Of a stretch of 64,000 nucleotides of DNA, positions 9,497-48,472 are shown piece after piece. The translations under genes were made by a program, and so were the position numbers. The stretch is from the IMG/VR virus record IMGVR_UViG_3300014204_000113, positions 96,001-160,000 of that record. One strand, 5' to 3'. The first letter of the stretch is position 1. Every line of letters begins with the position of its first letter. This stretch comes from a virus (Duplodnaviria; Caudoviricetes). Under the pieces are notes generated by a model. That model was not told where the DNA came from. It saw only the letters and a list, made by a program, of their open reading frames with translations, and searched no databases.

Positions 9497-9735
9497 CCCA
9501 ACTATACGAACAAGATATCTTTAAAATTAAAGAAACCTATGATGAAAGAATAAACAAAAAAGCCAGGGCCGAAGGGGAACTTACGGCCCAAACAAAAAGA
9601 TTGAATGAGGAATTCAATTGCAAGGATTTAAAAGAAGCAAATGAATTTTTGGAAGAACTTCAAGAAGAAAGAGATGAAATTAAAGTTAAACTTGAACATA
9701 AAGTGAAAGAAGCTAAGGAATTGTTAGGAGAATAA
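9493..9735 (+). CDS. Small coiled-coil protein, possibly an SbcC-associated coil segment
   Basis: E/K/L-rich heptad pattern; GGAGG RBS. Confidence 0.6.
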   Translation: MTQLYEQDIFKIKETYDERINKKARAEGELTAQTKRLNEEFNCKDLKEANEFLEELQEERDEIKVKLEHKVKEAKELLGE

Positions 9736-9939
9736 ATGATAACTGTATCAATTTCTATAAATGGCCAGCCTATCTATACGAGGTCTGCGGTTAATGTTAC
9801 AGAAGAGGCTGGTGGTAAATATGGAAAAGGCAAACAAGTTTATCGAATGGACACTGGTGAAATTTTAATAAACCATAAAACAGAAGATGGTGCAATCAAA
9901 CTTGCTTGTCGGATGTTAGAAACAATTAAAGAAGTATGA
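9736..9939 (+). CDS. Hypothetical protein
   Basis: ORF with AGGAG RBS. Confidence 0.55.
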   Translation: MITVSISINGQPIYTRSAVNVTEEAGGKYGKGKQVYRMDTGEILINHKTEDGAIKLACRMLETIKEV

Positions 9940-10127
9940 AATTCACAATATCTAAAATAATTTGCGATTGCGGCAATGAAATTTTCTGGGAACCAATGGA
10001 ATTTGAAGATGGCGACTGGATTCTTATTTGTTGTGATAAATGCAATAAAGATGAAGGTTATTACATAGACTTAGTTTATGACTTTGGGAATAGAGATGGA
10101 CTTAGAAAACCTGAAAATCCAAATTGA
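9936..10127 (+). CDS. Small Cys-containing hypothetical protein
   Basis: CDCG...CDKC motifs. Confidence 0.5.
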   Translation: MKFTISKIICDCGNEIFWEPMEFEDGDWILICCDKCNKDEGYYIDLVYDFGNRDGLRKPENPN

Positions 10128-12600: not shown

Positions 12601-12843
12601 GTCAACCACCCTATAACTATTAAAAAGTTATGAACTTTAAGTTCGAGGTTGACCAGACTCAGCCAGAGTCGTAAGACTATCGGGCTACGTTAATTGAATC
12701 ATGACACCTTGGGATGCGCGCCAGTCCCATGCTCTGTCGGCCAACATTAAACAGACATACAGGGTTGAAGTCAGTGTGTTGGTTGTAAAAAGTTCAATTA
12801 ACTTTGTCGAGGCACACATCACCCTAGAAATAGGAGGCTCATT
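12601..12843 (+). ncRNA. omegaRNA (HEARO-like) scaffold associated with IscB
   Basis: GTCAACCACCC...GTTGACCAGACTCAG...CTACGTT...ACACCTTGGGATGC...CCAGTCCCA.GCTCTG...TTGTCGAGGC motifs directly upstream of iscB. Confidence 0.8.
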
Positions 12844-14121
12844 TTGAGCAAGGTATTTGTTTTAGATACTAATAAAAGACCGTTAAATATGGTTCATCCA
12901 GGAAGAGCAAGAAAATTGCTTTCTTCTAGTCAAGCTGCAATATTTAAAAGATATCCATTTACGATTATTTTGAAGAAAGAAGTTGGTGGTCCAATTAATC
13001 TGTTGAGGATTAAAATTGACCCAGGGAGTAGATTCACGGGGTTAGCATTGGTTGAAAATAAAGAAGTGGTCTTTGCTGCTGAAATTGAACATAGAGGACA
13101 TAGAGTTAAGAAGTTGTTAGACTCAAAGAGAGTGAATCGCAAAAACCGTAGAAGGAGAAAGACTAGATATCGCCAAGCAAGATTTTTAAATAGGAGGAAA
13201 CCAAAAGGTTGGATTCCACCGTCTTTAGAAAGCAGAGTTCAAAACATCAAAACTTGGGTAAGTCGTTTAAGCAGATTGGCACTAATAGATTCAATTTCTT
13301 TAGAATTAGTTAAATTTGATTTACAAAAACTACAAAATCCAGAAATTTCTGGCGTTGAATATCAACAAGGAGAATTATTTGGTTACGAAGTTAGAGAATA
13401 TTTGTTAGAAAAATGGGGAAGAAAATGTGTCTATTGTGGATGTATAGATAAACCGTTGCAAATAGAGCACATAATTCCAAAATCTCGTGGCGGTTCAAAT
13501 AGAATATCAAATTTAACCTTAGCTTGTGAAAAATGTAACCAAAAGAAGGGTAATCTTACCGCAGAAGAATTTGGTTTTCCTGATATTCAGAAACAAACGA
13601 AGAAATCACTAAGAGATGCGACAATAGTCAATGTGACAAGATGGAGATTATTTAACTTGTTGAAAAAATTTAATCTTCCATTAGAAATTGGAAGTGGAGG
13701 AAAAACCAAATTTAATAGGACTAATCAAAATTATCCTAAAACACATTGGATAGATGCTGCTTGTGTAGGAAAGTCTGGAGAGGAAATTAAAATGCCTTCT
13801 TGGATAAAACCTTTACATATCAAAGCGTTTGGTCACGGTTCTCGTCAAAAATGTAGGACGGATAAATATGGTTTTCCTAAATCTTATGTTTCTAAAGAGA
13901 AGTATTTTATGGGGTATCAAACTGGCGATATAGTAAAAGCAAATATTTTAAAAGGGAAATATAAAGGTTATTATATCGGAAGAATCGCTATTAGACACCA
14001 ACCTAAATTCAGTTTGAATGGATTTAATGTTCATCCAAAATATTTAAAAATTATACAACATAACGATGGATATGGATATGGAATATTTGCTTTTTTGTTG
14101 AAAAGAATGAACAATGATTAA
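12844..14121 (+). CDS. iscB: IscB RNA-guided endonuclease (IS200/IS605 family; RRXRR, split RuvC, HNH)
   Basis: VFVLD..RPLNM (PLMP domain), IDPGSRFTG (RuvC-I), Arg-rich bridge helix, LELVKFD (RuvC-II), CVYC..EHIIPKSRGGSNRISNL..ACEKCN (HNH), HWIDAAC (RuvC-III). Confidence 0.92.
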   Translation: MSKVFVLDTNKRPLNMVHPGRARKLLSSSQAAIFKRYPFTIILKKEVGGPINLLRIKIDPGSRFTGLALVENKEVVFAAEIEHRGHRVKKLLDSKRVNRKNRRRRKTRYRQARFLNRRKPKGWIPPSLESRVQNIKTWVSRLSRLALIDSISLELVKFDLQKLQNPEISGVEYQQGELFGYEVREYLLEKWGRKCVYCGCIDKPLQIEHIIPKSRGGSNRISNLTLACEKCNQKKGNLTAEEFGFPDIQKQTKKSLRDATIVNVTRWRLFNLLKKFNLPLEIGSGGKTKFNRTNQNYPKTHWIDAACVGKSGEEIKMPSWIKPLHIKAFGHGSRQKCRTDKYGFPKSYVSKEKYFMGYQTGDIVKANILKGKYKGYYIGRIAIRHQPKFSLNGFNVHPKYLKIIQHNDGYGYGIFAFLLKRMNND

Positions 14122-15721: not shown

Positions 15722-16660
15722 ATGAATATATTGGTGACTGGCGGGGCCGGATTTTTAGGAAGTTTCCTTGTTGGGAAATTATTAGACAAAGGGTATGAAA
15801 TAACTGTTATTGACAACCTGATGTATAACCAATCATCGCTGTTACAATATTGTAATAACCCAAATTTTAAATTTGTTTGGGGCGATGTTAGAAACATAGA
15901 TTTGGTAAGCACATATATTGATAGATGTGATTTTTTTCTTCCTTTAGCCAGCATTGTTGGAGCGCCAAGTTGTTCAAGAGACCCATTATCCTCTTGTGTG
16001 GATACTGCAATAACCCAATATAATTTATACGGGAAAAGTACAATTTATCCAATGACCAACAGCGGTTATGGGTGTAAAAGTGGCGAGATTCATTGCACAG
16101 AAGAAACTCCTTTACAGCCTATATCAGAATATGGTTTACAAAAAGTTGAAGTGGAAAAATATTTATTTGATCACAATCTAAACACAATTTCTTTGCGTCT
16201 TGCTACTGTATTTGGAGTAAGTCCAAGAATGAGAACTGACCTTTTGGTTAATTACACTGTCAATGAATGCGTTACTAAAAAAGTAATCTTATTACCAGAA
16301 GATGTTATGAACAATAATCGAAACTTTGTTCATGTTTTGGATGTGGCAGATTGTTTTATTCATTGTATAAATAATTTTGATGATATGAAAGGACAACCAT
16401 ATAATTTAGGAAATGATAATTTGAATATGACACTAGGAGAAATGACATATCAAATTGCTGAAAATTTAGGAAGTGAAGTAGTTATTTCTCACCATTACAA
16501 AGACCAAGACAAAAGGAATTATGTAGTCAGTAATGAGAAATTAAGAAAGGCAGGATTTGAAGCTAAACGAACTATTTTAGAAGAATTGCCAAACTTAATT
16601 GAAGTGTGTTGTATGATCCAAATGATGAATTATGGGAGAAATCAATTTAAAAATGCTTAA
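15722..16660 (+). CDS. NAD-dependent epimerase/dehydratase (extended SDR)
   Basis: TGGAGFLGS Rossmann motif, YGLQK catalytic YxxxK, LRLATVFG. Confidence 0.9.
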   Translation: MNILVTGGAGFLGSFLVGKLLDKGYEITVIDNLMYNQSSLLQYCNNPNFKFVWGDVRNIDLVSTYIDRCDFFLPLASIVGAPSCSRDPLSSCVDTAITQYNLYGKSTIYPMTNSGYGCKSGEIHCTEETPLQPISEYGLQKVEVEKYLFDHNLNTISLRLATVFGVSPRMRTDLLVNYTVNECVTKKVILLPEDVMNNNRNFVHVLDVADCFIHCINNFDDMKGQPYNLGNDNLNMTLGEMTYQIAENLGSEVVISHHYKDQDKRNYVVSNEKLRKAGFEAKRTILEELPNLIEVCCMIQMMNYGRNQFKNA

Positions 16661-16765
16661 TGTGGTGTGGTAAGGTGCGGTTGGGTGAGGTATGGTATGG
16701 TCAGGTATGGTCTGGTAAGGTTAGGTGGGGTCGTGTAGGGTGAGGTTTGGTAAGGTATGGTAAGG
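16661..16765 (+). repeat. Array A1: 21 pentamer units of constant GGT plus variable NN (candidate guide RNA)
   Basis: TGTGG TGTGG TAAGG TGCGG TTGGG TGAGG TATGG TATGG TCAGG TATGG TCTGG TAAGG TTAGG TGGGG TCGTG TAGGG TGAGG TTTGG TAAGG TATGG TAAGG. Confidence 0.95.
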
Positions 16766-16770
16766 GTTTG

Positions 16771-16810
16771 GTTGTCATTTTCCAATTAAATCTTATTGGA
16801 AAATGACAAC
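16771..16810 (+). terminator. 16-bp hairpin closing array A1
   Basis: GTTGTCATTTTCCAAT / ATTGGAAAATGACAAC perfect inverted repeat, then AATTTT. Confidence 0.75.
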
Positions 16811-16839
16811 AATTTTGAATATAAAAACTGAATTTAGGA

Positions 16840-17544
16840 ATGCTTAATATGCAAATACCAAATACATTAATTCTTTGTGGTGGTCTTGGTGAAAGACTAA
16901 GACCTCTTACTGATAATCATCAGAAATGTATGTTGCCAGTACAAGGAAGACCATTTCTTGAATATACAGTAGATAAAATTAAACAGTTAGAATTAAACCC
17001 ACCAATTTTCTGTTGTGGACACAAGGTTGATGAAGTAATCAACCATTTTGGAAAAGATACAAATGGATATAAATTTTCATATCGTGCTGATATAAATACT
17101 GGTGCAAGGATTAAAGAAGCATTATCTTTAATTCATTCAGAACATTTCATTGTCTTTAATGGAGATTCATATTGCAATATAGATTATAATTACTTTTGGT
17201 ATATATATAAGGAATTTGTTAATCTTAATGATGATTGTTGTAAAATATTGGTACATAAAAAGAATTCATTATTAGCTTCATATATTCAAACTTCTATATA
17301 TGGTTCTTATGGTGCTGGTATTTATTTTTTTAAGAAATCTTATATAGAAAGTTTAGAATGGAATAATAACCTTTCTATAGAAGATGACATCATACCAAAT
17401 TGCAAGAAGATTTATACTTGTGATACTCCAGAAGAATTTTTTGTAATTGATATTGGGACTAAAGAAAATTATGAGATAGTGAATGATAAGGAGAATAAAT
17501 ATGGAAGGTTTCTTGCCGACGCAAATAAACGGATTGTTAAGTAA
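16840..17544 (+). CDS. Sugar-1-phosphate nucleotidyltransferase (HddC-like)
   Basis: LCGGLGERLRPLT...KCM, NGDS, DIGT motifs. Confidence 0.85.
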   Translation: MLNMQIPNTLILCGGLGERLRPLTDNHQKCMLPVQGRPFLEYTVDKIKQLELNPPIFCCGHKVDEVINHFGKDTNGYKFSYRADINTGARIKEALSLIHSEHFIVFNGDSYCNIDYNYFWYIYKEFVNLNDDCCKILVHKKNSLLASYIQTSIYGSYGAGIYFFKKSYIESLEWNNNLSIEDDIIPNCKKIYTCDTPEEFFVIDIGTKENYEIVNDKENKYGRFLADANKRIVK

Positions 17545-20330: not shown

Positions 20331-20340
20331 TTAAATGAAT

Positions 20341-20415
20341 TTTGGTCCGGTATGGTTTGGTGAGGTATGGTGAGGTGCGGTAAGGTGAGGTCAGGTTTGG
20401 TGGGGTAAGGTATGG
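20341..20415 (+). repeat. Array A2a: 15 pentamer units GGT+NN (candidate guide RNA)
   Basis: TTTGG TCCGG TATGG TTTGG TGAGG TATGG TGAGG TGCGG TAAGG TGAGG TCAGG TTTGG TGGGG TAAGG TATGG. Confidence 0.95.
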
Positions 20416-20442
20416 GTTTCAACTATCTTCAAAGTTTTGCTT

Positions 20443-20522
20443 TTTGGTATGGTCAGGTATGGTTAGGTAAGGTATGGTACGGTTCGGCGGGGTTTGGTTC
20501 GGTAAGGTAAGGTATGGTAAGG
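20443..20522 (+). repeat. Array A2b: 16 pentamer units GGY+NN (candidate guide RNA)
   Basis: TTTGG TATGG TCAGG TATGG TTAGG TAAGG TATGG TACGG TTCGG CGGGG TTTGG TTCGG TAAGG TAAGG TATGG TAAGG. Confidence 0.95.
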
Positions 20523-20549
20523 TAGATGGGAGAGTCTATCTCCCATCTA
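20523..20549 (+). terminator. 11-bp hairpin closing array A2b
   Basis: TAGATGGGAGA-gtcta-TCTCCCATCTA, then AATTTTAAAC. Confidence 0.75.
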
Positions 20550-30435: not shown

Positions 30436-30530
30436 TATTGTGTTGTAATGTTCTGTGTTGTGTGGCGCTGTAGTGTAATGTTAAGTCCTGTAGTGTGGCG
30501 TAGTGTGTTGTTATGTGTTCTATTCTAAGG
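30436..30530 (+). repeat. Array A3: 19 pentamer units with mainly TGT constant triplet plus variable NN, directly upstream of the RAMP-like gene
   Basis: TATTG TGTTG TAATG TTCTG TGTTG TGTGG CGCTG TAGTG TAATG TTAAG TCCTG TAGTG TGGCG TAGTG TGTTG TTATG TGTTC TATTC TAAGG, then hairpin GGATTC-tgtatt-GAATCC (30531-30548). Confidence 0.9.
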
Positions 30531-30574: not shown

Positions 30575-31141
30575 ATGAAAATTAAAGTTACAATTCAAGG
30601 AACAGTTCCAATTTTATTTAATCGTTTTGCAGAAGAGAATGAAGTTAAAGTTGCTTCTGGAATTAATCCAGTTCAAGGAGGACAAAGAGGAACGCCTAGA
30701 GAACAAGCAGAAAAGAAACTATATCAAGACGTGGATGGGAATTTGTTTCTTCCAAGTCCTATGTTATTTTCTTGTTTAGTAGATGCTGGTAAATTCCATA
30801 AAGTGGGAAGAAATAAAGTTACGACTCAGAAGACTTCTTTAGTTCCTGCCGGTATATCTGTTGAAGAATTAATCATTCCGTTTAATACTAAAGATTGGGA
30901 AATTGATTCTAGAAGCGTTGTGATACCATCTACTGGTGGTAGAATCATGTGTCACAGACCCCGGCTTGATGAGTGGCAATTAACTTTCACTTTGGATGTT
31001 GATACAACAATGTTTGATCCTAAGTTTGTTAGGACTCTTATGGATGATGCAGGCAAGAAATGTGGCTTGGGTGATTATAGACCTAATCGTAAAGGGCCAT
31101 TTGGTAAATTTGTTGTGATTAATTGGGAAGAAGAAAAATAA
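30575..31141 (+). CDS. Stand-alone RAMP/Cas7-like RNA-binding protein (candidate effector of the pentamer arrays)
   Basis: N-terminal strand IKVTIQGTVPILF, LFLPSPMLFSCL (compare the IPGSSxKG helix of Cas7-group RAMPs), C-terminal Gly-rich loop GLGDYRPNRKGPFGKF; AAGGAG RBS; no other cas genes in the window. Confidence 0.7.
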   Translation: MKIKVTIQGTVPILFNRFAEENEVKVASGINPVQGGQRGTPREQAEKKLYQDVDGNLFLPSPMLFSCLVDAGKFHKVGRNKVTTQKTSLVPAGISVEELIIPFNTKDWEIDSRSVVIPSTGGRIMCHRPRLDEWQLTFTLDVDTTMFDPKFVRTLMDDAGKKCGLGDYRPNRKGPFGKFVVINWEEEK

Positions 31142-31169: not shown

Positions 31170-31475
31170 ATGAAATTTGAATTAATGAAAGAATTAAACG
31201 AATTAATTCTTTCTATTGACAACCCGGTTGAAACAGCAACAGATTGGCTTTTTGATTATCAAACCTATAGTTATAATTATATAAGCGCAGAAACAAAAAA
31301 TAGAGTTGATAAACAAGAAGAATGGTTAAATTTACATCAACAACCTATTCTTTTAGGCGAGGAAATACAAACTGAAGAAGAAACGCTTGAGGAAATACTT
31401 GATGAACTTGAATCTTGGCTTCCTGCTCTTCAATCTGCTATTTGGGCAGTAAAAGAACTAAAGAAGGAATATTGA
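31170..31475 (+). CDS. Acidic hypothetical protein
   Basis: GGAG RBS; 101-aa Glu-rich ORF. Confidence 0.6.
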   Translation: MKFELMKELNELILSIDNPVETATDWLFDYQTYSYNYISAETKNRVDKQEEWLNLHQQPILLGEEIQTEEETLEEILDELESWLPALQSAIWAVKELKKEY

Positions 31476-32186: not shown

Positions 32187-32261
32187 TGTGGTCTGGTTAG
32201 GTTAGGTGAGGTGAGGTCAGGCTGGGTGGGGTGCGGTAAGGTGTGGTATGGTAGGGCGAGG
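32187..32261 (+). repeat. Array A4: 15 pentamer units GGY+NN (candidate guide RNA)
   Basis: TGTGG TCTGG TTAGG TTAGG TGAGG TGAGG TCAGG CTGGG TGGGG TGCGG TAAGG TGTGG TATGG TAGGG CGAGG. Confidence 0.95.
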
Positions 32262-32330: not shown

Positions 32331-32777
32331 TTGATGGACTTTCTTGTTCTCTCAAGGCAACAATCTGAATTGATTGACCCAACTAAAAGCCATATTATCA
32401 TATCAATTACAGACCCATTTGATGTTCCTGCCAATTTATTTCCGAATGATAATTGCAAAGGAATATTGCAATTATCATTCCATGACATTGATTCAGAAGT
32501 TATAGCAGACAAACATAAATTGGAATTGTTTACGAGAGAACAAGCAAGAAAAATTCTTGATTTTGTTGATGAAAATATAAACAATATCGAATTGATTATC
32601 GTAGCGTGTGAGGCTGGTATCAGTAGATCATCATCTGTTGCCGCTTTTTTAAGTGAGATATATAATGGACATGATTCTGGTTTCTTTAGAACTCATATTC
32701 CAAATAGGTTTGTTTTTAAACAATTGATGTATGAACATGAGAATATAAATATAGAGGACATGTTTTTAAACAATTGA
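32331..32777 (+). CDS. Dual-specificity/tyrosine phosphatase-like protein
   Basis: CEAGISRS (CX5R P-loop), LSFHD, PNRFV. Confidence 0.8.
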   Translation: MMDFLVLSRQQSELIDPTKSHIIISITDPFDVPANLFPNDNCKGILQLSFHDIDSEVIADKHKLELFTREQARKILDFVDENINNIELIIVACEAGISRSSSVAAFLSEIYNGHDSGFFRTHIPNRFVFKQLMYEHENINIEDMFLNN

Positions 32778-32810
32778 TGTATGAACATGAGAATATAAAT
32801 ATAGAGGACA
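32711..32810. repeat. Exact 50-bp tandem duplication
   Basis: TGTTTTTAAACAATTGATGTATGAACATGAGAATATAAATATAGAGGACA occurs twice, followed by TGTTT. Confidence 0.95.
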
Positions 32811-33011
32811 TGTTTGTATAAAATCAACTGAATAAAGGAGGAGATGATGATTAATTGTTTATGTGATAAGATTAATTCATTTATAAGATTTATTATATTT
32901 ATTCTAACCTTATTTCTACTTGCTTTTGGAGGATTATTTGTTTTAATTGGACAAGGAATCTTATTTGTCGCTGAAAAAACAATTGTTTGTTCATTAAAGG
33001 AGAAGTAGTTA

Positions 33012-33194: not shown

Positions 33195-33553
33195 AAATAA
33201 TAGTTATTGTATATCTTTCTACTATTGTTGTGGAGGCTGGAACTGCTGGAGTTAAGTTGTTTCCCCAAATACTACGGACATACCCGACTCTCAACGCCCC
33301 GGACACCCTCATCTTTTGTGACTGTCGTGGTCTTCCGTAACACCGTAGACGCTATGGCCTCTCCGGTTTGCTTCCAAGCGGTTGCGGCAGAGTTCACCTC
33401 ATAAGAAGCAGACGTGGCTACCGTCCAGGCCCGACAAAATGGATAACCCAGTCTGGCATATTGATTTCCCTCCCTTCACTGCGTGGCTGTTTGTTAACCC
33501 AAACTACTGAATCCACATATTAATCTGCGCATCATCAATCCAGGTTATCCTAT

Positions 33554-34000
33554 TCATGCCAATTCTACTCTCCCCAGGAGAACTTCAAGTTTTACCTTGG
33601 GATCGGACAAGTCATTGGGAGTGAAATCAATCACCGGAGTTTTCCCAGCTATGATCTCCGCTTTGAGGGTGTAATACTGTCCCAGGACGCTTTGTACCCA
33701 AACCCAAGCCGCTTCGATTGCCGCTTTGAGTTCCGGGGTTGCAGAAGGGCCAACATAGAGGGCCGTGAAGCTTTGCTGTGTGCTCTGGGCATAGTGCGAA
33801 TAGATATAGCTGTGCAGTGCTGTTTCCAACGCTGCCAGCCGAGAGTCAATCAATTCTTGTGCCAGCAACGCCGCCCTCTCAGGGAACGCCGCAAGCTTTT
33901 CATCTTCGGTAAGTTCACGGTCAAACACAACCTCCCAGGGTTGTTCCATGCCGAGGTCGATTGATCGCACACTATTGCCATTGTCTGAATACGCAAACAT
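33554..34000 (-). CDS. Putative tail fibre assembly/chaperone protein
   Basis: Directly downstream of the tail fibre genes; AGGAG RBS. Confidence 0.55.
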   Translation of the reverse strand: MFAYSDNGNSVRSIDLGMEQPWEVVFDRELTEDEKLAAFPERAALLAQELIDSRLAALETALHSYIYSHYAQSTQQSFTALYVGPSATPELKAAIEAAWVWVQSVLGQYYTLKAEIIAGKTPVIDFTPNDLSDPKVKLEVLLGRVELA

Positions 34001-34010
34001 TGTTGATCTC

Positions 34011-35747
34011 CTAAAGGTTATCTATCCAGCCATAACAAAACAAGTGAGCGTTAGCATTGTTGGATGCATAATAGATGTTAGTACTTTCAAGCATCAAAGC
34101 AGCCACGCCACCCAAAGCTACGGAAATTGAATATAATAATGGACTATTGGTGTAATTGCCCCAACCTCCATAGGAATTATTAGGAGCCACTATAATTTGC
34201 ACATCTGACAGTGCATAGTTTATGATAATTTGGGCGGCAGTCGGAGGTACAAAGTTACCAACTGCAACAGCTACCCAAGTTGGTGTACTAATATTTCCTT
34301 GTACCCCACTTGCCATCGTGGGCAATCCAGTGCCGGTATTGATATACTGGACCGACTTATCTTTTTGAATAGTTCGCAGCAAATTGGCGCTTGCATCTGC
34401 CCGCACCCACCCTAACCGGGCAGCATAAGTATAGCCATCTGGCAACGTCGGGGCCGTGGCAGAGAGGGAAAGCAGCCCAGCCAGATCATCCGTGGTGGGG
34501 TTATAGGCCGCATGGACGGCATACCAAGTGCTAACTGCAACCGTCCCCGTATCAAGACCACCCGCCCCGGAAACTGCGGTATCTATGTCAATATCAACTG
34601 TCCGCACCGTCTTGTATTTGTTGTCAGGGTCCTCAAGTACCACTTCGTCGGCAGTGACAGTAATCTCCGTGTTAGATGTAACCTGTATTTGGAGGTTGCT
34701 TGCCTGGCCCTTAATGCCGACTTTGCTGGGCTCAAGTGATTCAATACTTACCCCACTATCACCTTTCCATTCACCATATTTAATATAGACCAAAGACCCA
34801 TAGACAATAGTTCCTGCCCCATCAAATATCTGATATGGACCAGCGTCCAGGGTCCCATTAATTGTCAGGGTTTTTCCGACAGCTATCGTCAGGACATTAC
34901 CGGGCGGGATGACCAAATTAGTGGCGACATTGATGGCCATGTCATCAGAGATCGTTGCTGTTTCGGTTATTTCCAGCCGGGTATCTACCGACCCAATACA
35001 GGCTATGGCCGTCGCCAGGTCCGCAAACCAACCGGAATACACAGTAGACCCGGCGGCAAAAACTACCTTCCCCGTGCCGGTGCAGGAGAAGATTTGATAG
35101 AGGCCGGCGTCGAGGGAGCCGTTGATAGTAAGAGTTTTGGTAGTAGCTACGGCAAACGGTACCCCCGGCTGAACCGTAACCATCGGGGCTGCCAGGGTCA
35201 CATCGTCGTCAATCGTGTAGGCGTAGGTGATGCGCAGTTCTTTGTCCGCCGCAGCCGCCACCGCATCCGCAGTTTCCAGGGCGGCTCGGTCGGTGCCGTA
35301 ATCCCGGGCCACCACGTAGCCCGGGCCATTGGGCCACAGGCCGTCTCGGGTGGCAACTACATAGACTCGGGTGATTGGATCCGTAAGAACAGTGTCCGAC
35401 AAATTAACTGTGGTGGTAGGCGCAGCGTAAGAAGATGAGGCCACAGTGGAATAGGCCATCCCAGCGGCCACCTGGACCTGCACCACAGCACCAGCGGCGA
35501 ATCTGGAAGTGTAGTCGCCGGGCAAGGTAAAAGTGTCAGCGTCAGAATAGGTGCAGGTGACTGGGATCATGGTCACGATCTGATCTTCAATAGCCCAATT
35601 GTTAATTAAATCTGGTAAAGGAACAAGAGTCTGTAAAAAAGCATCTGTGGCATCCAGGGCAGCATTATATGCATTATAAGCAGTAGGACCACTTTCTCGA
35701 TAAGGAGGCTTTGGAAAAAAATTATTGGGAGTATATTCCATAGTCAT
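34011..35747 (-). CDS. Tail fibre / receptor-binding protein
   Basis: A/T/G-rich beta-type sequence; internal repeat KTLTINGxLDAGxYQIF twice; GAGGLDTG...WYAV...PTLPDGY module typical of fibres. Confidence 0.7.
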   Translation of the reverse strand: MTMEYTPNNFFPKPPYRESGPTAYNAYNAALDATDAFLQTLVPLPDLINNWAIEDQIVTMIPVTCTYSDADTFTLPGDYTSRFAAGAVVQVQVAAGMAYSTVASSSYAAPTTTVNLSDTVLTDPITRVYVVATRDGLWPNGPGYVVARDYGTDRAALETADAVAAAADKELRITYAYTIDDDVTLAAPMVTVQPGVPFAVATTKTLTINGSLDAGLYQIFSCTGTGKVVFAAGSTVYSGWFADLATAIACIGSVDTRLEITETATISDDMAINVATNLVIPPGNVLTIAVGKTLTINGTLDAGPYQIFDGAGTIVYGSLVYIKYGEWKGDSGVSIESLEPSKVGIKGQASNLQIQVTSNTEITVTADEVVLEDPDNKYKTVRTVDIDIDTAVSGAGGLDTGTVAVSTWYAVHAAYNPTTDDLAGLLSLSATAPTLPDGYTYAARLGWVRADASANLLRTIQKDKSVQYINTGTGLPTMASGVQGNISTPTWVAVAVGNFVPPTAAQIIINYALSDVQIIVAPNNSYGGWGNYTNSPLLYSISVALGGVAALMLESTNIYYASNNANAHLFCYGWIDNL

Positions 35748-35761
35748 TTATTTATCCACCC

Positions 35762-36997
35762 TTAACTTGGAAGTCGATATGCAACCCGATAGCAATTGTT
35801 TGCATAAATATAATATTTACAGTTCAATATGCCTATATCAACTGTGCCCCAAGCTGAATCCCCAGTTACTGAAGTGCCAGAGTCTACGGTTTTGTTGGTA
35901 AGTAATGGATGGCCCGCTACGGCCCGTTCACCACTAAGCCACATTGTAAGTCTGGCTTCAGTCGCCATTGGGCAGGCAATACGAATATCTTCCACAACGA
36001 CAGAGCCAACAGAAATTTCATGGTTTCCGGTGCCCAAATTCCATTGGATTAAATCTCCGCACTGAATAAACCCGTCTATATTACTTGATGCATTGTTCAA
36101 TATATTGCCGATCCATCTGAAATTCGTGGCTGGCAAAACGATAAACCAGTCCCCTTGGGTCATGGTCAAAGCAGTACCGGAATATTCAATGGTGCCTCCA
36201 GTGGCATCATTATTGTTATTGTGAATGATGGGGCGCATTAGCCCCTTACTGGCACCAGATAAGACATAGATCATGGCCCCAATAAGCTCATCTGTGGTAA
36301 ACCCATAACCGATGTTTGCGGCGTTCAAATTATTACGAAGCGTGATAACCTGGGAAGCCTGGGAACTGAACCGCATGAAAGGCATGGCCTTAAGTTCAAA
36401 ATCGGTGTCGGTGTCTCCGGCCAGTGCAAAAATGGCATACCATTGCGAGGCCTTCTCCGTTTGGGTGGTCCCGTACAGCCCGCCAGCCCCAAAAATGCAG
36501 GAGACATTAGCCGTAATCGTTCTGACTTTTCCGTCGCTAAGTCCGCCGTCCGCCTGGCACACGGGGTTCATAATATTCGGCATCCCGGTCAAAGCTGTTT
36601 CGGCAGGGCAATCGGCGGTGGCTTCAACCCGTATCGTCCCGGCGTCTACCCACACCAGGGGCGGCTTCAGACGTACTGAGGGCTGGCTTTGGATTTGATT
36701 TTCCAGTGCCAGAAAATCAGCTTTGGTTATTGGTTGCCGCCCGAAATCCACCGTCTCGGTGCCTGCAAAAGTCTCAGCAACGTAGGTGGCCGTGATAACA
36801 ATTTCGTTAGTGGTTTTTGAGTTAATTGCATAAGCACCATCGTAATTGGTAGTCCCCGCAATGACCACCACTTGCTCTGCCAAAAACGCATGGCCAGTAA
36901 TAGGTAGTCCGACTTCTCCGCCACCCTTGTCTACGGCTGCGGCATTATCTATAGTATCAGATACCGCAGGTTGCCACTTTGGATTAGGAAAGGTCAT
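35762..36997 (-). CDS. Tail fibre / minor tail protein
   Basis: Position after the tail-tip gene; GAGGLYG...WYAIFA module similar to the neighbouring fibre. Confidence 0.6.
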   Translation of the reverse strand: MTFPNPKWQPAVSDTIDNAAAVDKGGGEVGLPITGHAFLAEQVVVIAGTTNYDGAYAINSKTTNEIVITATYVAETFAGTETVDFGRQPITKADFLALENQIQSQPSVRLKPPLVWVDAGTIRVEATADCPAETALTGMPNIMNPVCQADGGLSDGKVRTITANVSCIFGAGGLYGTTQTEKASQWYAIFALAGDTDTDFELKAMPFMRFSSQASQVITLRNNLNAANIGYGFTTDELIGAMIYVLSGASKGLMRPIIHNNNNDATGGTIEYSGTALTMTQGDWFIVLPATNFRWIGNILNNASSNIDGFIQCGDLIQWNLGTGNHEISVGSVVVEDIRIACPMATEARLTMWLSGERAVAGHPLLTNKTVDSGTSVTGDSAWGTVDIGILNCKYYIYANNCYRVAYRLPS

Positions 36998-39729
36998 TAT
37001 GTTTCTCCCAAAAATCTTACGAGCGTTAAGGCAGTGTCCCGGCTACCCTGGTCAAGATTTACTTCTTTAGTTCGGACCTGATAGTTTTGCGCCTCATCAT
37101 TCAGCAACTCATCCCGGAGACTTACTGTATCGGTCATTAATTCCAACCTAGCGCCAGCAAGTGACATACTTACTGGTTCAATAATGTCTTTGGCTGAAAG
37201 GAACTTGAGCAACAGTTCAGCCTTGGCAGACATAACGTCCCGAATTTCGCAACATACCATGTCATCCCAGGTACAAGAAAGAGATGTCCCTTGTCCCCCA
37301 GCCTCCTGGATTCCGGCCAGGTAAAACAAGGAGGGGTTTCGGGCATACCAACCATAAACCACAGAGACAAAGGCATTAACCTCAGTCAAATCTATGGTCT
37401 GACTATTTTCCCATTTATTCGAAGCCGTGAGTGCCAGTACCGGGCCAACCGGCGGGGTTCCAGCGTAAGGAATTATCTTGATTTTCCCGGAGTCCATGAA
37501 AAACCAGTACATCATTCTAGAACAGATTTCTTTTATTGCATCAGAGGCAGATATTCCCAGATTAGCAATGTCTTTGAGCCCCCGTTTTTCCAGACTCCCA
37601 CCTTCAAATCTCGAATGGATAATGTCATCAGGTGCGGCTATATATGCATCAGATAGGACATCAGCATCGATATAATCTGTCAGGCCATAGGTTGCTAAAA
37701 ATGCTTGGATTCCCGCTAAACTTTTAGTACAAGTCAGCCACTCGTCTACCATGTCATCAAAGACGGAAAAGGAAGCTAACTCTGATAATCCGTTTAAAAT
37801 AATTACCCCTAGATGGTCTAGGGCATGGCGCCCTCCGGCATGTTCAACCACCCGGATAAGCACATCCCCATCTGGATCAAAATCAGGGTCGGTAGATTCA
37901 AACTGGACCATGCCATATTCAGGATATCGAGTAAGCGTCTGAGTGTAGGCCCCCCCCTCAACTGTCTTGCTTGCGGGTTGCGCCAGATTATCAATGTATA
38001 TCGGGCCAATGGATTCAAACGGACCACCATATACTTGATAGGCGTTATGGTAATACTTCGACCTGATTTCAAGATCATCAAAGTCAACAGTCCATGATTC
38101 AGACACTGCACTAGTAACAGCACCTATTCTGAATTTCATAGGAGAAGCTGCGGAAAAATCAGCACTGTAATTCATCACCACGTCGCCGTTAATCCACAAT
38201 ACTGCGCGCCCTGTTGTAACTGGTGAATACCACATAGCAAATGTTAATGGCACATCAAGGTAAGCCAAGATGTTGAAATCACATTGACCACCTGCGTTAG
38301 TATAAATCGCTCCGGTTTCGTCTACATACACATAAAAATAAGCTGAAACTCCAGTAGCATCGACAATACTTAGGATAGTAGTGTTAGCAGAAGTTGGTGT
38401 AGTCGGAGCCACTACAACTCTAAAAGTTCCGGTAACAAATATCTCCCCCGCCGACCCTAATGATAATTCTCCGTATGCTGACTGACTAGCCCCTGTGACT
38501 TCACATCTGACTGCTCTGTTTCCGGTAAGTCCTGGGGTTATCAGTGAAATAACCCCCCCACCAGCAGCAACTATATGATCCAGTTCGTTAAAATTGTTTT
38601 CCTCAAAATAGGCAGACCGGGCAATGGGGGCAGGGGACCAACCGGACACCGCCTGGCCTTCACAGAGAAATTCCCCGAGAATGAGAGGGTTTGGGGTTCC
38701 ATCCGCAGCAGGTAAGGCAATCCGTTTTTTAAGGCAATCGCTGATAAAATCCTCTGCGTACACTTCAACATTATTTGGCGACCCTACAGCCCTAGTCACT
38801 GGTCCCCATTGCTTCACCAAACCATGAAACAGAGTGATGAACTCAGTGAAATTATCTGCCATCCATTCGTCTTCACCCCACTCAGAGGTAAACCAACCAC
38901 CTTTTGACCAGCCGAGTTGAATTTTCAGTTGGAGATTATACCAATCCTGTCCTGCCAAAAAGAAACTGCTTTTGTCTGGGGAAAACAAAGGGGTCGGGGT
39001 TTTGACATATTGAATTTCTTCACCAGGGACTATTACTGTAACCTCATCAGAAAATTGGCGGTTATTTAACAACAACCCTGAATGTGATCCAGCCACCAGG
39101 TCATCAAATGCCGTGGGCGCTTCCATGGAAACGCTGCCAACTTGCTCAATATCCCGGACAATGGCAAATTCTCCCAGGGGTTCGATATCTTTCACATAGG
39201 TAAGCAAGTCCCCGGACACGTTCTGGTCTTCAGCATATCCTTGGTAGACACTTGCAAATATCGTATCCTCTGCCCAAGTGCTAAAATCATTGGTGGTGGC
39301 TAAACTTTCTTCAACCCAGGCCCGGACACCTTCTATAGTTATCTTAAATTGGTAGTAAGGATAAATAATAATCGTGTCACCAGATTCGATAGCAGTCCAG
39401 GCAGCGGCGGCAAAGGCCGTTATATCGTTGGCACTACGATAAAAAACAGCCAGGTCATATCCTGGTGAGTTCCAATCCCAAGTTATGACCGCCGGTGACG
39501 TAGGCTCCTGTAAATTAGAAATCAGCGCCTCTGATATCCAATATCCACCAGTAAAGCCATGAAAGTCAGCTTGGATTCGATCCGTGGATATAAAAGAACA
39601 CTCCACAAAATTACCATCGGCATTGACCCCGTTCGGCCAGATATAGGGCAAGAAAACAGCACGAACCGCTGGTTGTGCCCCAATGGTCAGAGCCTCATAT
39701 GCTATGAAATCTGCGCTAGCCAGGAGCAT
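36997..39729 (-). CDS. Large tail tip / baseplate hub protein
   Basis: 910 aa, acidic, second gene after the tape measure. Confidence 0.6.
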   Translation of the reverse strand: MLLASADFIAYEALTIGAQPAVRAVFLPYIWPNGVNADGNFVECSFISTDRIQADFHGFTGGYWISEALISNLQEPTSPAVITWDWNSPGYDLAVFYRSANDITAFAAAAWTAIESGDTIIIYPYYQFKITIEGVRAWVEESLATTNDFSTWAEDTIFASVYQGYAEDQNVSGDLLTYVKDIEPLGEFAIVRDIEQVGSVSMEAPTAFDDLVAGSHSGLLLNNRQFSDEVTVIVPGEEIQYVKTPTPLFSPDKSSFFLAGQDWYNLQLKIQLGWSKGGWFTSEWGEDEWMADNFTEFITLFHGLVKQWGPVTRAVGSPNNVEVYAEDFISDCLKKRIALPAADGTPNPLILGEFLCEGQAVSGWSPAPIARSAYFEENNFNELDHIVAAGGGVISLITPGLTGNRAVRCEVTGASQSAYGELSLGSAGEIFVTGTFRVVVAPTTPTSANTTILSIVDATGVSAYFYVYVDETGAIYTNAGGQCDFNILAYLDVPLTFAMWYSPVTTGRAVLWINGDVVMNYSADFSAASPMKFRIGAVTSAVSESWTVDFDDLEIRSKYYHNAYQVYGGPFESIGPIYIDNLAQPASKTVEGGAYTQTLTRYPEYGMVQFESTDPDFDPDGDVLIRVVEHAGGRHALDHLGVIILNGLSELASFSVFDDMVDEWLTCTKSLAGIQAFLATYGLTDYIDADVLSDAYIAAPDDIIHSRFEGGSLEKRGLKDIANLGISASDAIKEICSRMMYWFFMDSGKIKIIPYAGTPPVGPVLALTASNKWENSQTIDLTEVNAFVSVVYGWYARNPSLFYLAGIQEAGGQGTSLSCTWDDMVCCEIRDVMSAKAELLLKFLSAKDIIEPVSMSLAGARLELMTDTVSLRDELLNDEAQNYQVRTKEVNLDQGSRDTALTLVRFLGET

Positions 39730-40106
39730 TAGATTTCCTCAAAACTTACATCAAATGAATACAATTCTTCCCCATTGTAAAAAGCTTCTTCTGATGTTGG
39801 GGCTGGGCAATCCACCATCAATACTGTAGCATCAAGATTGGTTCCATCTAAATACAAATCTATAGGACATTGAAAATCCCAAAGTGTTAAAAAATAATCC
39901 TTTTGAGATTTTTCAACTAGAGTAAAAGATAAATCATATTTCTTTTTTGTTGGCCCTGAATATCTAAGACTAGTTCCATCAAAAGTTCTGACATCATCAT
40001 TAAGATTTATTCTTGTTCCTGGACTATGGCCGAAATCAAAGTTTTGTGGGAAAATATATGTAACTTGATCTGGATCGCCAGATGGGTAAATGAGTTTTCC
40101 ATTCAT
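39729..40106 (-). CDS. Distal tail protein-like
   Basis: 125 aa immediately after the tape measure; RTFDG...YDLSF...FEEI pattern. Confidence 0.55.
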   Translation of the reverse strand: MNGKLIYPSGDPDQVTYIFPQNFDFGHSPGTRINLNDDVRTFDGTSLRYSGPTKKKYDLSFTLVEKSQKDYFLTLWDFQCPIDLYLDGTNLDATVLMVDCPAPTSEEAFYNGEELYSFDVSFEEI

Positions 40107-47155: not shown

Positions 47156-48472
47156 TCAAATATCCAACATATTTGCTATCTTATTTTTGTTATAATATCT
47201 TTTGTTTACCATTTCTGAATAAAAAGATTGATGCCATTCTCTATCAAAATTGGCCTTGGTGTTACAAGAGGTGCATAATGTAATTAAATTCTTGGGATGG
47301 CAATTTAATTTATTATAATCAAGATGGTGAATTGTTAATTTATTATCATATTTTTTATTACATAGTGGATTAAGACACATATAATTATCACGCTCTTTAA
47401 TACTTTCTTTGTATTCTTTATCTTTCCACACACAACAATATGGTTCATAAGATTTACCACCTTGCCAATTATAATTGTTTGAACCACTTTGTGAAATAGA
47501 TGATTTTATACTGCCACATTTTCTACATCTATGACCTTGAGAAAAACTATTATAAGAAATAAAAGATATATTTCCACATTCACATTTATATTTTAATTTT
47601 TGATGACATCCTTTATATTCATTAAATAATGGAACACAACCACCTTCTATAAATTTTTCTTTAACAAATTCTAAACTATGTCTTATTTTATCTGAAAATT
47701 TTATAATCCCACATTCTTTACATCTATGGCCTCGCATAAGATTATCAAATGATGTATAAGAAATATTTCCACAACTGCATTGATATTTTAATTTTGTTCT
47801 AGCATCAATATATTCATTAAAGAGAGGGATGCAACCACCTTCTACAAATTTATTTTTTACATATTCAAGACTGTGTTTGCTATTGATATTGCTTCTTTCA
47901 ATTCCACATTTTCTACATCTATGACCATTACAGAAACCATTGAATGTGATTTGTGATTCATTCCCACAACTACATATATATTTTAATTTTTGTTGTGCAT
48001 TTATATATTCATTAAATAATGGGATACATCCTTCTTCTATAAACTTATCTCTTACATATTCTATATCCAATCTTTTCTTTTCTGAAATTCTTTTACCAAC
48101 ACAATTTGAACATCTTGATCCAGATTTAAAACTCGAAAAAGTTATAAAAGATATATTTCCACAATTACATCTATATCTCATTTTAGTGTGGTTATTTTTA
48201 TAATTATCTTCTAAACATTCACACCCATTATCAATAAAAACTTTTTTGACATAGTTAAAATCTAATTTATAAAGTTCTTTATTTTTATCAATATTACAAA
48301 ATTTACATCCACTACCATTTTTTAAACCATTAAGACTAATTTTTGTTATATGACCATTATTACATTTACATTCAAGTGGAATTCTAGCATACTTATATTC
48401 ATTTTCTAATAAAACAAATCCTCTATTCTTAAATTCCCCCCTTGCTATATCTATAGTTATAATTTTAGACAT
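47156..48472 (-). CDS. Free-standing HNH homing endonuclease with tandem Cys-rich repeats
   Basis: Several repeats of EYVK.KFIEGGC.PLFNEY....KLKY.C.CGN.S.I.F..F..GHRC.KCG; NYNWQGG; ERDNYMC...TIHHLDYNKLNCHPKNLITLCTSCN. Confidence 0.8.
   Translation of the reverse strand: MSKIITIDIARGEFKNRGFVLLENEYKYARIPLECKCNNGHITKISLNGLKNGSGCKFCNIDKNKELYKLDFNYVKKVFIDNGCECLEDNYKNNHTKMRYRCNCGNISFITFSSFKSGSRCSNCVGKRISEKKRLDIEYVRDKFIEEGCIPLFNEYINAQQKLKYICSCGNESQITFNGFCNGHRCRKCGIERSNINSKHSLEYVKNKFVEGGCIPLFNEYIDARTKLKYQCSCGNISYTSFDNLMRGHRCKECGIIKFSDKIRHSLEFVKEKFIEGGCVPLFNEYKGCHQKLKYKCECGNISFISYNSFSQGHRCRKCGSIKSSISQSGSNNYNWQGGKSYEPYCCVWKDKEYKESIKERDNYMCLNPLCNKKYDNKLTIHHLDYNKLNCHPKNLITLCTSCNTKANFDREWHQSFYSEMVNKRYYNKNKIANMLDI

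What the first reader, a model, noticed from the sequence alone, without database searches (positions are those of the whole stretch)
16661..16820. Array A1: longest guide-like unit, starting at the base after a stop codon
Seen: 21 units begin immediately after the epimerase TAA. NN string: GT GT AA GC TG GA AT AT CA AT CT AA TA GG CG AG GA TT AA AT AA. It is followed by GTTTG and a perfect 16-bp hairpin. No promoter fits between gene and array. Inference: the RNA is cut out of the operon mRNA, for example by nuclease trimming to the protein footprint with the hairpin protecting the 3' end.
Basis: partly seen in the sequence, partly recalled or inferred. Interest (0 to 1): 0.7.

Follow-up and report, generated by a model that had tools for sequence, protein, structure and literature searches.

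The report
Phage VIPR guide RNA beside its target gene
The five-base repeat after the epimerase gene is a guide RNA of the VIPR system, a phage RNA-guided DNA silencer first described in 2026, and it most likely reads the last codons of the same epimerase gene in rival phages while the phage's own copy escapes.

Summary
There are 21 TNNGG units at 16661-16765, starting at the base after the epimerase TAA. GTTTG and a perfect 16-bp hairpin (16771-16810) follow.

The kind is already published. GGY/NN pentamer arrays are vrRNAs of VIPR systems (bioRxiv 10.64898/2026.04.26.720920.720927, 2026.10.15.759431). This scan has noted such arrays in at least 425 other genomes.

The 188-kb phage encodes three Vipr paralogues, and all three match the solved SUSP1 Vipr chain by sequence. 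It carries at least 13 arrays spread over about 100 kb.

New here:
- Under the published 1-nt-skip rule, A1's unique best match in the genome is the last 21 codons of the adjacent epimerase. It scores 29/42, or 26/36 without three handle-like end units, which is below the 80% targeting level.
- Codon positions 1-2, inferred from protein sequence, give 81-92% for the closest foreign epimerase alleles.
- A sister phage carries the identical A1. Its other arrays match this phage's neighbouring genes at 83-96%.

A1 is therefore most likely a guide against rival alleles of its neighbour gene. Processing out of the operon mRNA is plausible but untested. Verdict: a new member of a known kind.

The parts
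16595..16657 (+). Last 21 codons of the phage's own epimerase gene. This is the target-like but mismatched ('immune') site for A1, with NN on codon positions 1-2 and the skipped base on the wobble position.
   Evidence: It scores 29/42 (26/36 for units 1-18) and is the single best of about 375,860 positions on both strands of the genome (z about 6). It is in frame 0 and ends exactly at the stop codon.
16658..16660 (+). Epimerase stop codon TAA, directly abutting the array.
16661..16750 (+). A1 guide part: units 1-18 (T-NN-GG). Their NN dinucleotides decode to V V K/N A C/W D/E I/M I/M H/Q I/M L K/N Y G R R/S D/E F/L.
   Evidence: The sister phage has the same units minus one TGTGG.
16751..16765 (+). 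Units 19-21 (TAAGG TATGG TAAGG). They are a semi-conserved 3' 'handle' shared by many arrays and probably not part of the guide.
   Evidence: the last 2-3 units are alike in most GGT-type arrays of both phages; these units are the ones that mismatch in otherwise near-perfect cross-phage hits.
16766..16770 (+). Linker GTTTG between the last GG and the stem.
   Evidence: Several other arrays end GG-GTTT or GG-ATTT.
16771..16810 (+). Tail hairpin: 16 Watson-Crick pairs and an 8-nt loop.
   Evidence: It is 100% identical in the sister phage. Equivalent stems with different sequences follow 10 other arrays.
16811..16820 (+). AATTTTGAAT. It is the A[AG]TTT[TC] run that follows the tail hairpins and looks like a terminator U-tract.
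   Evidence: terminator-like call.
16839..16848 (+). Second copy of the 10-nt direct repeat AATGCTTAAT. The first copy is at 16652-16661. The two copies bracket the array-plus-tail cassette, and the downstream gene's ATG follows.
   Evidence: A 10-mer repeat occurs in 2.5% of random controls, and it is not a general feature of the other arrays.
30575..31141 (+). vipr paralogue 1 (188 aa), the only one inside the window. It is a candidate protein partner, 14 kb downstream of A1.
   Evidence: PDB 36pp_D 'SUSP1 Vipr protein', E=1.2e-6, G-loop GLGDYRP against GVGDWRP. Two more paralogues lie outside the window, at genome 83123-83653 and 87107-87661.
20344..20525 (+). Sister arrays A2a and A2b, a tandem pair in the same operon.
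30439..30518 (+). Array A3 (TGT-NN units), just upstream of vipr paralogue 1.
32190..32259 (+). Array A4, with the same GG + hairpin + ATTTTAAAC tail.

Best explanation
A1 is a gene for a VIPR guide RNA (vrRNA).

Shown:
- It has the published GGY/NN pentamer grammar.
- It lies in a complete 188-kb phage genome that encodes three Vipr (ancestral RAMP) paralogues.
- It ends in a tail hairpin of a type shared by the phage's other arrays.
- Read by the published one-base-skip rule, it aligns in frame with the last 21 codons of the epimerase gene directly upstream. The phage's own copy matches at only 69-72%.

Inferred:
- The array is transcribed on the operon strand.
- One Vipr protomer binds per unit, holding the GGY bases and exposing the NN pairs (mechanism taken from the SUSP1 cryo-EM paper).
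- The roughly 18 guide units then pair with the template strand of the epimerase 3' end in rival phages of the same group, whose alleles fit at 81-92%. This would form the gapped R-loop/triplex that blocks transcription of the rival's sugar-pathway operon.
- The 3' end is set at the hairpin and U-run, by termination or by protection from exonucleases. How the 5' end is made is unknown.
For: 1. Grammar and non-randomness.
2. Published definition of vrRNAs, the 1-nt skip rule, wobble alignment and the >=80% criterion.
3. Vipr homologues: (E = 1.2e-6, 1.9e-14 and 6.1e-6 to PDB 36pp 'SUSP1 Vipr protein', with the G-loop D-[YF]-R conserved).
4. Skip-1 forward pattern: the unique best hit of the whole genome is 16595-16656, in frame and ending at the stop codon. 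Skips 0, 2 and 3 give nothing there.
5. Mismatched codons are conservative or synonymous-family changes (for example AGA in the gene against CG in the guide, both Arg), which shows homology to a diverged allele.
6. The closest foreign alleles P0004-P0008 and P0016 give 81-92% NN match on units 1-18 whatever the codon choice. The fit is always at the exact C-terminus, against 72% for the phage's own allele.
7. In the sister phage G001, arrays in the same operon match this phage's neighbouring genes at 25/26, 28/32, 22/26 and 20/24. They match their own genome at or below shuffled-guide (null) levels (<=73%). The B1 locus shows reciprocal targeting at 18/20 and 22/26.
8. The 1-nt skip gives 8 guides at >=80%, against 2 (skip 0) and 1 (skip 2).
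9. A1 plus its tail is 100% identical between the two phages, while the flanks fall to 60-78%.
Against: - No DNA sequence matching A1 at >=80% was found. The best DNA-level matches are the phage's own and the sister phage's epimerase (69-74%).
- The 81-92% figures are inferred from protein sequences.
- The own-site score exceeds the maxima of shuffled guides only modestly (26 against a maximum of 25). Its weight comes from its position and frame.
- A1 lies 14 kb from the nearest vipr gene in its own window, unlike published loci.
- The sister phage keeps an identical A1 but has none of the three vipr paralogues, only a distant RAMP-like ORF with no PDB sequence hit.
- There is no expression data of any kind.
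Confidence: 0.75

Rival explanations
1. A1 is a real vrRNA, but it has no live target or is not aimed at epimerase alleles. It could be a relic guide whose target lineage is gone. It could also be a decoy or 'solo' vrRNA that soaks up or redirects a co-infecting phage's Vipr, as published for satellites.
For: No target at >=80% was found at the DNA level in IMG/VR, in one JGI metagenome scan, in GTDB genomes or in INPHARED. The sister phage keeps A1 without the three vipr paralogues. Solo and decoy vrRNAs are documented.
Against: A1 and its tail are perfectly conserved in a locus whose flanks diverge. The in-frame fit to the epimerase C-terminus is unique in the genome, and foreign alleles fit better than the phage's own. 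Sister arrays have clear live targets in the other phage.
Confidence: 0.12
2. A1 regulates its own operon in cis. The Vipr-A1 complex would bind the imperfect site at the end of the phage's own epimerase gene and tune read-through into the downstream sugar genes.
For: The best match in the phage's own genome is the adjacent gene end. Array and site are 3 nt apart.
Against: The match is 69-72%, below the published 80% level. Published assays lost silencing when NN pairing was perturbed. Published systems show no self-targets, and self-scores are lower than rival scores. The sister phage's arrays fit this phage's alleles far better than their own, which points outward rather than inward.
Confidence: 0.06
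3. The tract is not a guide at all. It would be a G-rich periodic 3'-UTR element, such as a TRAP-like multimer binding site or a two-tetrad G-quadruplex former, working with the hairpin as a terminator or attenuator.
For: This was my reading before the literature check. The 5-nt periodic G-rich triplets resemble TRAP sites, and the hairpin with T-run is called terminator-like.
Against: It does not explain hypervariable NN with fixed GGY, the in-frame codon matches of NN strings to neighbouring genes of the sister phage (25/26 and 28/32), or the three Vipr homologues. No Rfam family matches the tract.
Confidence: 0.03

Closest known systems
VIPR systems (Vipr + vrRNA); reference type II of Escherichia phage SUSP1 and the Pseudomonas fulva prophage (bioRxiv 10.64898/2026.04.26.720920; structures in 10.64898/2026.04.26.720927)
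   Same: Both have YNNGG/GGY-NN pentamer units with hypervariable NN and a structured 3' tail. Both have a stand-alone RAMP protein with a G-loop D-aromatic-R. The one-base-skip reading puts the skipped base on the wobble position. Both are phage-borne, have targets in competing phages, and show no self-match at >=80%.
   Different: A1 has 21 units, against 9-16 reported for those clades. It lies 14 kb from the nearest vipr gene in its own window (the other two paralogues lie about 25-30 kb away), inside a sugar-biosynthesis operon and abutting a stop codon. The tail is a simple hairpin whose sequence varies between arrays, followed by A[AG]UUUU, rather than an invariant pseudoknotted tail. 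The last ~3 units look like a conserved handle. The genome holds three divergent vipr paralogues with GGT-, GGC- and TGT-type arrays. The type (I-VII) was not assigned.
Solo/orphan vrRNAs of satellites and VIPR-null phages (bioRxiv 10.64898/2026.10.15.759431)
   Same: Both are arrays that stand away from any vipr gene. Guides aim at relatives, with self-match scores lower than rival-match scores. The sister phage carries A1 without this phage's vipr genes.
   Different: The published solos sit in the former vipr locus or in satellites, and they target vipr, other vrRNAs, satellites or host REP decoys. A1 and its sisters sit beside ordinary metabolic genes and read those same genes in relatives.
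Class 1 CRISPR crRNA bound by a Cas7 backbone (types I and III)
   Same: A RAMP filament binds along a guide with periodic flipped bases. A variable guide is capped by a conserved handle.
   Different: The period is 5 nt with three bases sequestered, against 6 nt with one flipped base. There are no repeat-spacer array, no Cas6, and no adaptation genes. Target pairing is gapped.
Free-standing homing endonucleases of T4-like phages (Seg/Mob 'marker exclusion'), as an analogy for the genomic logic only
   Same: The weapon is encoded next to the gene it attacks in a co-infecting relative, and the carrier's own allele is resistant through sequence differences at the site. There is a peak of identity around the element between relatives.
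   Different: The weapon here is an RNA guide plus a trans-acting binding protein, not a nuclease. No cleavage or gene conversion is shown here. The resemblance rests on my own knowledge and on two genomes.
TRAP (trp RNA-binding attenuation protein) sites: 11 (G/U)AG triplets with 2-3-nt spacers
   Same: A periodic G-containing triplet about every 5 nt lies ahead of a terminator-like hairpin.
   Different: No TRAP-type protein logic is needed here. The NN positions carry codon-matching information, which TRAP spacers do not.

Membership tests
VIPR vrRNA | Tandem 5-nt units GGY-NN (YNNGG), at least 4 units, in one register without indels | tested here: met
   There are 21 units at 16661-16765, and 20 of 21 keep GG. 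The periodic pattern gives 54 matches against 0.09 expected.
VIPR vrRNA | GGY conserved while NN is hypervariable among arrays and relatives | tested here: met
   22 arrays in two sister phages keep GGY. NN strings differ even at homologous positions such as A2a and B1.
VIPR vrRNA | Structured 3' tail after the repeat tract | tested here: met
   A 16-bp hairpin follows A1. 11 of 22 arrays have stems of at least 10 bp directly after the last GG, against 1% of random 80-mers. One compensatory change separates the homologous B1 tails. The form differs from the published SUSP1 pseudoknot.
VIPR vrRNA | A Vipr (stand-alone RAMP) gene in the same element | tested here: met
   Three paralogues hit PDB 36pp 'SUSP1 Vipr protein' at E=1.2e-6, 1.9e-14 and 6.1e-6. 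No fold prediction was run.
VIPR vrRNA | Array lies in the intergenic DNA flanking vipr (typical published locus) | tested here: not met
   A1 is 14 kb from the vipr gene in its own window and about 25-30 kb from the other two paralogues (83123-83653 and 87107-87661), and it lies inside a sugar operon. Published solo vrRNAs show that adjacency is not obligatory.
VIPR vrRNA | One-base-skip match (>=80% of NN positions) to a natural target | tested here: inconclusive
   For A1 the DNA-level best is 69-74%, in its own and the sister phage's epimerase. Values inferred from protein sequence are 81-92% for P0004-P0008 and P0016. Sister arrays meet the criterion: 96%, 88%, 85%, 83% and 90%.
VIPR vrRNA | Skipped base falls on the codon wobble position | tested here: met
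   The A1 alignment starts at codon position 1 of the epimerase. The same holds for the two cross-phage hits checked (frame 0).
VIPR vrRNA | No self-target at >=80% | tested here: met
   The best match in the phage's own genome is 29/42 (69%), or 26/36 (72%).
VIPR vrRNA | Expressed as a discrete RNA of about 100 nt that co-purifies with Vipr and silences a matching DNA target | not testable with these tools
   No transcriptome or biochemical data are available for this uncultured phage.
CRISPR array / crRNA | Direct repeats of about 24-40 nt alternating with spacers, with cas genes nearby | tested here: not met
   The period is 5 nt. No cas operon appeared among the annotated neighbours. The only other RNA-guided element is IscB with its HEARO RNA at 12601-14121.

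The most novel reading that the evidence does not exclude
In this phage group, vrRNA genes are not kept in a VIPR locus. They are scattered as small cassettes (array + handle + hairpin), each placed directly beside the gene whose rival alleles it silences. The guide and the mismatched 'immune' allele would then be inherited as one linked unit and could spread through relatives by recombination. That would be an RNA-guided counterpart of homing-endonuclease marker exclusion, with sibling phages aiming reciprocal guides at each other's alleles.
Probability: 0.35. Interest if true: 0.7.

Novelty: new member of a known kind. Interest (0 to 1): 0.4.

Why it matters
As a vrRNA, A1 adds little, because the class, its code and its role in conflict between phages were published in 2026. 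The arrangement is the part worth following up. In two sibling 188-190-kb phages, the above-null guide matches lie within about 350 nt of the place where the guide itself is encoded. For the guides that reach 80% or more, the match is to the other phage's allele. Foreign alleles fit better than the phage's own. If this linkage of guide and resistant allele is general, VIPR guides behave as allele-level selfish elements. They would then drive mosaic evolution of phage metabolic operons, not only defend against satellites and prophages. The locus also offers a natural test bed with three Vipr paralogues and three repeat flavours (GGT, GGC, TGT) in one genome, which could show how Vipr proteins choose their RNAs.

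Tried and rejected
- My first reading was a TRAP-like site or G-quadruplex, with a guide at only 10%. I dropped it after reading the VIPR papers and finding the Vipr hits in the PDB.
- Reversed and unit-reversed readings of the NN string, and skips of 0, 2 or 3 bases, gave no signal. Skip 3 only finds the arrays themselves.
- The exact gapped pattern for units 7-18 found nothing in IMG/VR or in GTDB genomes.
- The epimerase as a single query found nothing in IMG/VR. As an alignment it found one close relative (L009/G001, 82% identity) and otherwise homologues of at most 58% identity, whose best A1 score was 27/42.
- INPHARED has no DNA relative and no close epimerase or Vipr.
- A second protein search restricted to the C-terminus found no alleles beyond those already seen.
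The DNA around P0004-P0008 and P0016 could therefore not be read, and I inferred codon positions 1-2 from the proteins instead.
- Flanking direct repeats as a general mark of insertion are rejected. Only A1 has a 10-mer, and the other arrays are at background.
- No shared sigma-70-like promoter lies upstream of the arrays. There is only an enriched TT[TA]AA[ATG] word 8-20 nt upstream, in 10 of 22 arrays against 9% background, and its meaning is unknown.
- No structure prediction of the Vipr proteins was run, because the sequence match to the solved chain seemed sufficient.

Full report
**What is in the sequence.** Immediately after the TAA of a 312-aa NAD-dependent epimerase/dehydratase gene (15722-16660; Pfam PF01370 E=1.7e-27), the + strand carries 21 head-to-tail units of T-NN-GG at 16661-16765.
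- Only unit 15 (TCGTG) departs from GG.
- GTTTG follows, then a 16-bp perfect stem with an 8-nt loop (16771-16810), then AATTTTGAAT.
- The periodic pattern occurs 54 times in the window against 0.09 expected, always on the + strand. It forms four GGY tracts; a fifth tract with TGT units lies at 30439-30518.
- No ORF of 60 aa or more covers the tract, and no Rfam family matches it.

**Context.** The window is bases 96001-160000 of a complete 187,988-bp IMG/VR phage record with terminal repeats. Phage hallmarks are present: ribonucleotide reductase, tape measure, minor tail protein and HNH endonucleases. A1 lies inside a roughly 15-kb + strand operon of sugar-nucleotide and radical-SAM/methyltransferase genes.

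**How the identification was reached.** My own first reading was a TRAP-like protein-binding site or a G-quadruplex element, with a guide RNA at only 10%. Earlier notes of this scan then pointed to the VIPR papers, which I read myself.
- VIPR systems consist of a stand-alone ancestral RAMP protein (Vipr) and vrRNAs made of alternating GGY/NN motifs followed by a structured tail.
- One Vipr protomer binds per unit and sequesters GGY.
- The NN pairs read double-stranded DNA while skipping every third base.
- Targets are mostly coding, with the skipped base on the wobble position. At least 80% NN match is used as the criterion, and self-targets are absent.
- This scan has noted such arrays in at least 425 other genomes. 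The kind is known.

**Protein partner.**
- The 188-aa ORF at 30575-31141 matches the solved 'SUSP1 Vipr protein' (PDB 36pp) at E=1.2e-6. Its G-loop GLGDYRP aligns to GVGDWRP, which holds the published GGY-contacting D177/W178/R179.
- The genome holds two more paralogues, at 83123-83653 (E=1.9e-14 to 36pp) and 87107-87661 (E=6.1e-6).
- The paralogue in the window has the TGT-type array A3 upstream and the GGT-type array A4 downstream. The paralogues at 83123 and 87107 are flanked by GGT-type and GGC-type arrays respectively.
- Which paralogue loads A1 is not known.

**What A1 reads.**
- I wrote the NN string with one skipped base and scanned both strands. The single best hit, first in the window and then in the whole genome, is 16595-16656 in forward sense: 29/42, the only position of 375,854 to reach that score, z=6.
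- This hit is exactly the last 21 codons of the adjacent epimerase, with NN on codon positions 1-2.
- Skips of 0, 2 or 3 bases give nothing there.
- The mismatched codons are mostly conservative, or belong to the other codon family of the same residue (AGA against CG, both Arg). The guide therefore spells a diverged allele of the same peptide: V V K/N A C/W D/E I/M I/M H/Q I/M L K/N Y G R R/S D/E F/L ....

**Handle units.** Right-aligning all arrays shows that the last two or three units are semi-conserved (for example GT-AA-GA or AA-AT-AA) and are followed by GG plus the tail. In otherwise near-perfect cross-phage hits, these are the units that mismatch. I therefore treat units 19-21 of A1 as a handle.
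- With units 1-18, the phage's own allele scores 26/36 (72%), below the published 80% level.
- Codon positions 1-2 follow from the amino acid except for Leu, Arg and Ser. I could therefore bound the match for foreign alleles from protein sequences alone.
- The five closest homologues (P0004-P0008, 77-89% identical overall) and P0016 give 81-92% whatever their codon choice, always at the exact C-terminus. The background maximum elsewhere in these proteins is 21/36.
- The phage's own allele differs from that consensus at the positions the guide reads (I for V, E for K, N for S/T, Q for E).

**The sister phage.** IMG/VR holds one close relative, G001 (189,632 bp; epimerase 82% identical).
- It has A1 and its tail 100% identical, apart from lacking one TGTGG unit. 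Identity falls to 60-78% a few hundred bases to either side. It has the same mismatched epimerase end.
- G001 carries extra arrays at other gene junctions of the same operon, and these match this phage's genes:

| Guide (genome position) | Where the array sits | Best match in the other phage | Best match in its own genome |
|---|---|---|---|
| G001:1116 | After the glycosyltransferase gene | 25/26 in this phage's glycosyltransferase gene (window 21934) | 17/26 |
| G001:186370 | After the RmlC-like gene | 28/32 in this phage's RmlC-like gene (window 17666) | 22/32 |
| G001:187584 | Between the kinase and GT2 genes | 20/24, antisense, in the gene just downstream | 17/24 |
| G000:68927 (B1) | Homologous position to G001:136845 | 18/20 in the C-terminal codons of the upstream gene in G001 | 16/20 |
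| G001:136845 | Homologous position to B1 | 22/26 in the C-terminal codons of the upstream gene in G000 | 19/26 |

- At the B1 locus, the two phages thus carry different guides at the same position, and each reads the other's allele.
- The six above-null targets whose position I mapped lie within about 350 nt of the position homologous to the array. I mapped the seventh, D1, only through its own-genome site, 26 nt below the array.
- Across the 22 guides, the one-base skip gives eight matches at >=80%, against two for skip 0 and one for skip 2.
- This supports by analogy the reading that A1 is aimed at epimerase alleles of a third lineage, and that both sister phages carry the resistant allele linked to the guide.

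**Tail and biogenesis.**
- Eleven of 22 arrays in the two phages have a stem of at least 10 bp starting right after the final GG, against 1% of random 80-mers.
- The stems differ in sequence and mostly begin GT and end AC. They are followed by A[AG]TTT[TC]. The homologous B1 tails differ by a compensatory pair.
- The A1 hairpin is thus one instance of this system's tail, and the scan tool also calls it terminator-like.
- Upstream there is no room for a promoter between the stop codon and the array. No sigma-70-like site lies within 250 nt, and site counts equal shuffles.
- Co-transcription with the operon is therefore the simplest assumption. How the 5' end is formed, and whether the 3' end arises by termination or by protection from exonucleases, cannot be decided from sequence.
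- The papers I read are silent on biogenesis, apart from ribozyme-interspersed arrays in other types.

**Limits.**
- No DNA target at >=80% was found for A1.
I could not check whether those phages also carry A1.
- The sister phage has none of the three vipr paralogues, only a distant RAMP-like ORF with a GLGEGRP loop and no PDB sequence hit. A1 may therefore act there as a solo guide, or with a different protein.
- The cis-linkage idea rests on two genomes.

**Verdict.** A1 is a bona fide member of a published class, a VIPR vrRNA. It has an unusual placement and a well-supported but not proven target: rival alleles of the last codons of its neighbour gene.

Noticed in passing
window 12601-14121: IscB (425-aa ORF 12844-14121) with its HEARO/omega RNA (Rfam RF02033, 136 bits). 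The whole ~1.5-kb element is absent from the sister phage G001, where the flanks are contiguous, so it is a polymorphic insertion.
   Followed up: partly
genome G000 83123-83653 and 87107-87661 (outside the window); window 30575-31141: One phage carries three divergent vipr paralogues (27-42% identity to each other by tblastn or HMMER). The paralogues at 83123 and 87107 are flanked by GGT-NN and GGC-NN arrays. The one in the window has the TGT-NN array A3 upstream and the GGT-type array A4 downstream. The sister phage lacks all three and has a distant RAMP-like ORF at G001 154992-155651 instead. vipr genes thus behave as swappable cassettes.
   Followed up: partly
window 16652-16661 and 16839-16848: A 10-nt direct repeat AATGCTTAAT brackets the A1 array-plus-hairpin cassette. 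Each copy holds a stop/start junction, as if the cassette had been inserted into an ancestral ...GCT TAA T ATG... junction. A repeat this long occurs in 2.5% of random controls, and it is not seen at the other arrays.
   Followed up: yes
window 16661-16670 vs L009 6939-6943: A whole-unit indel: this phage has TGTGG TGTGG where the sister phage has one TGTGG. Arrays therefore change by single 5-nt units.
   Followed up: yes
8-20 nt upstream of array starts (e.g. window 16646-16651, 20332-20337): The word TT[TA]AA[ATG] lies within 22 nt upstream of 10 of 22 arrays, against 9% of random 22-mers. It may be a processing or promoter signal. At A1 it coincides with the Phe-Lys codons.
   Followed up: partly
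genome G000 82587-82706: A 24-unit tract, longer than A1, contains an internal GGTAA GGTAT GGTAA handle-like motif. It may be two fused vrRNAs.
   Followed up: no
window 33500-40000: GC content rises to 44-50% against about 32% elsewhere. The stretch covers large minus-strand ORFs (578, 411 and 910 aa) next to the tape-measure gene. It may be a horizontally acquired tail-fibre or receptor-binding module.
   Followed up: no
window 47503-48061 and 32711-32815: A 195-bp tandem repeat (2-3 copies, 72-75% identical) lies inside the HNH-endonuclease ORF 47156-48472. A perfect 50-bp tandem duplication lies at 32711-32815, at the end of the phosphatase-like ORF.
   Followed up: no
window 31170-31475 (G001 9729-10043): The acidic 101-aa ORF just after vipr paralogue 1 is kept at 91% DNA identity in the sister phage, although vipr itself and array A3 are replaced there by a 68-aa ORF. 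If it is a vap-like accessory gene, it persists without its vipr.
   Followed up: partly
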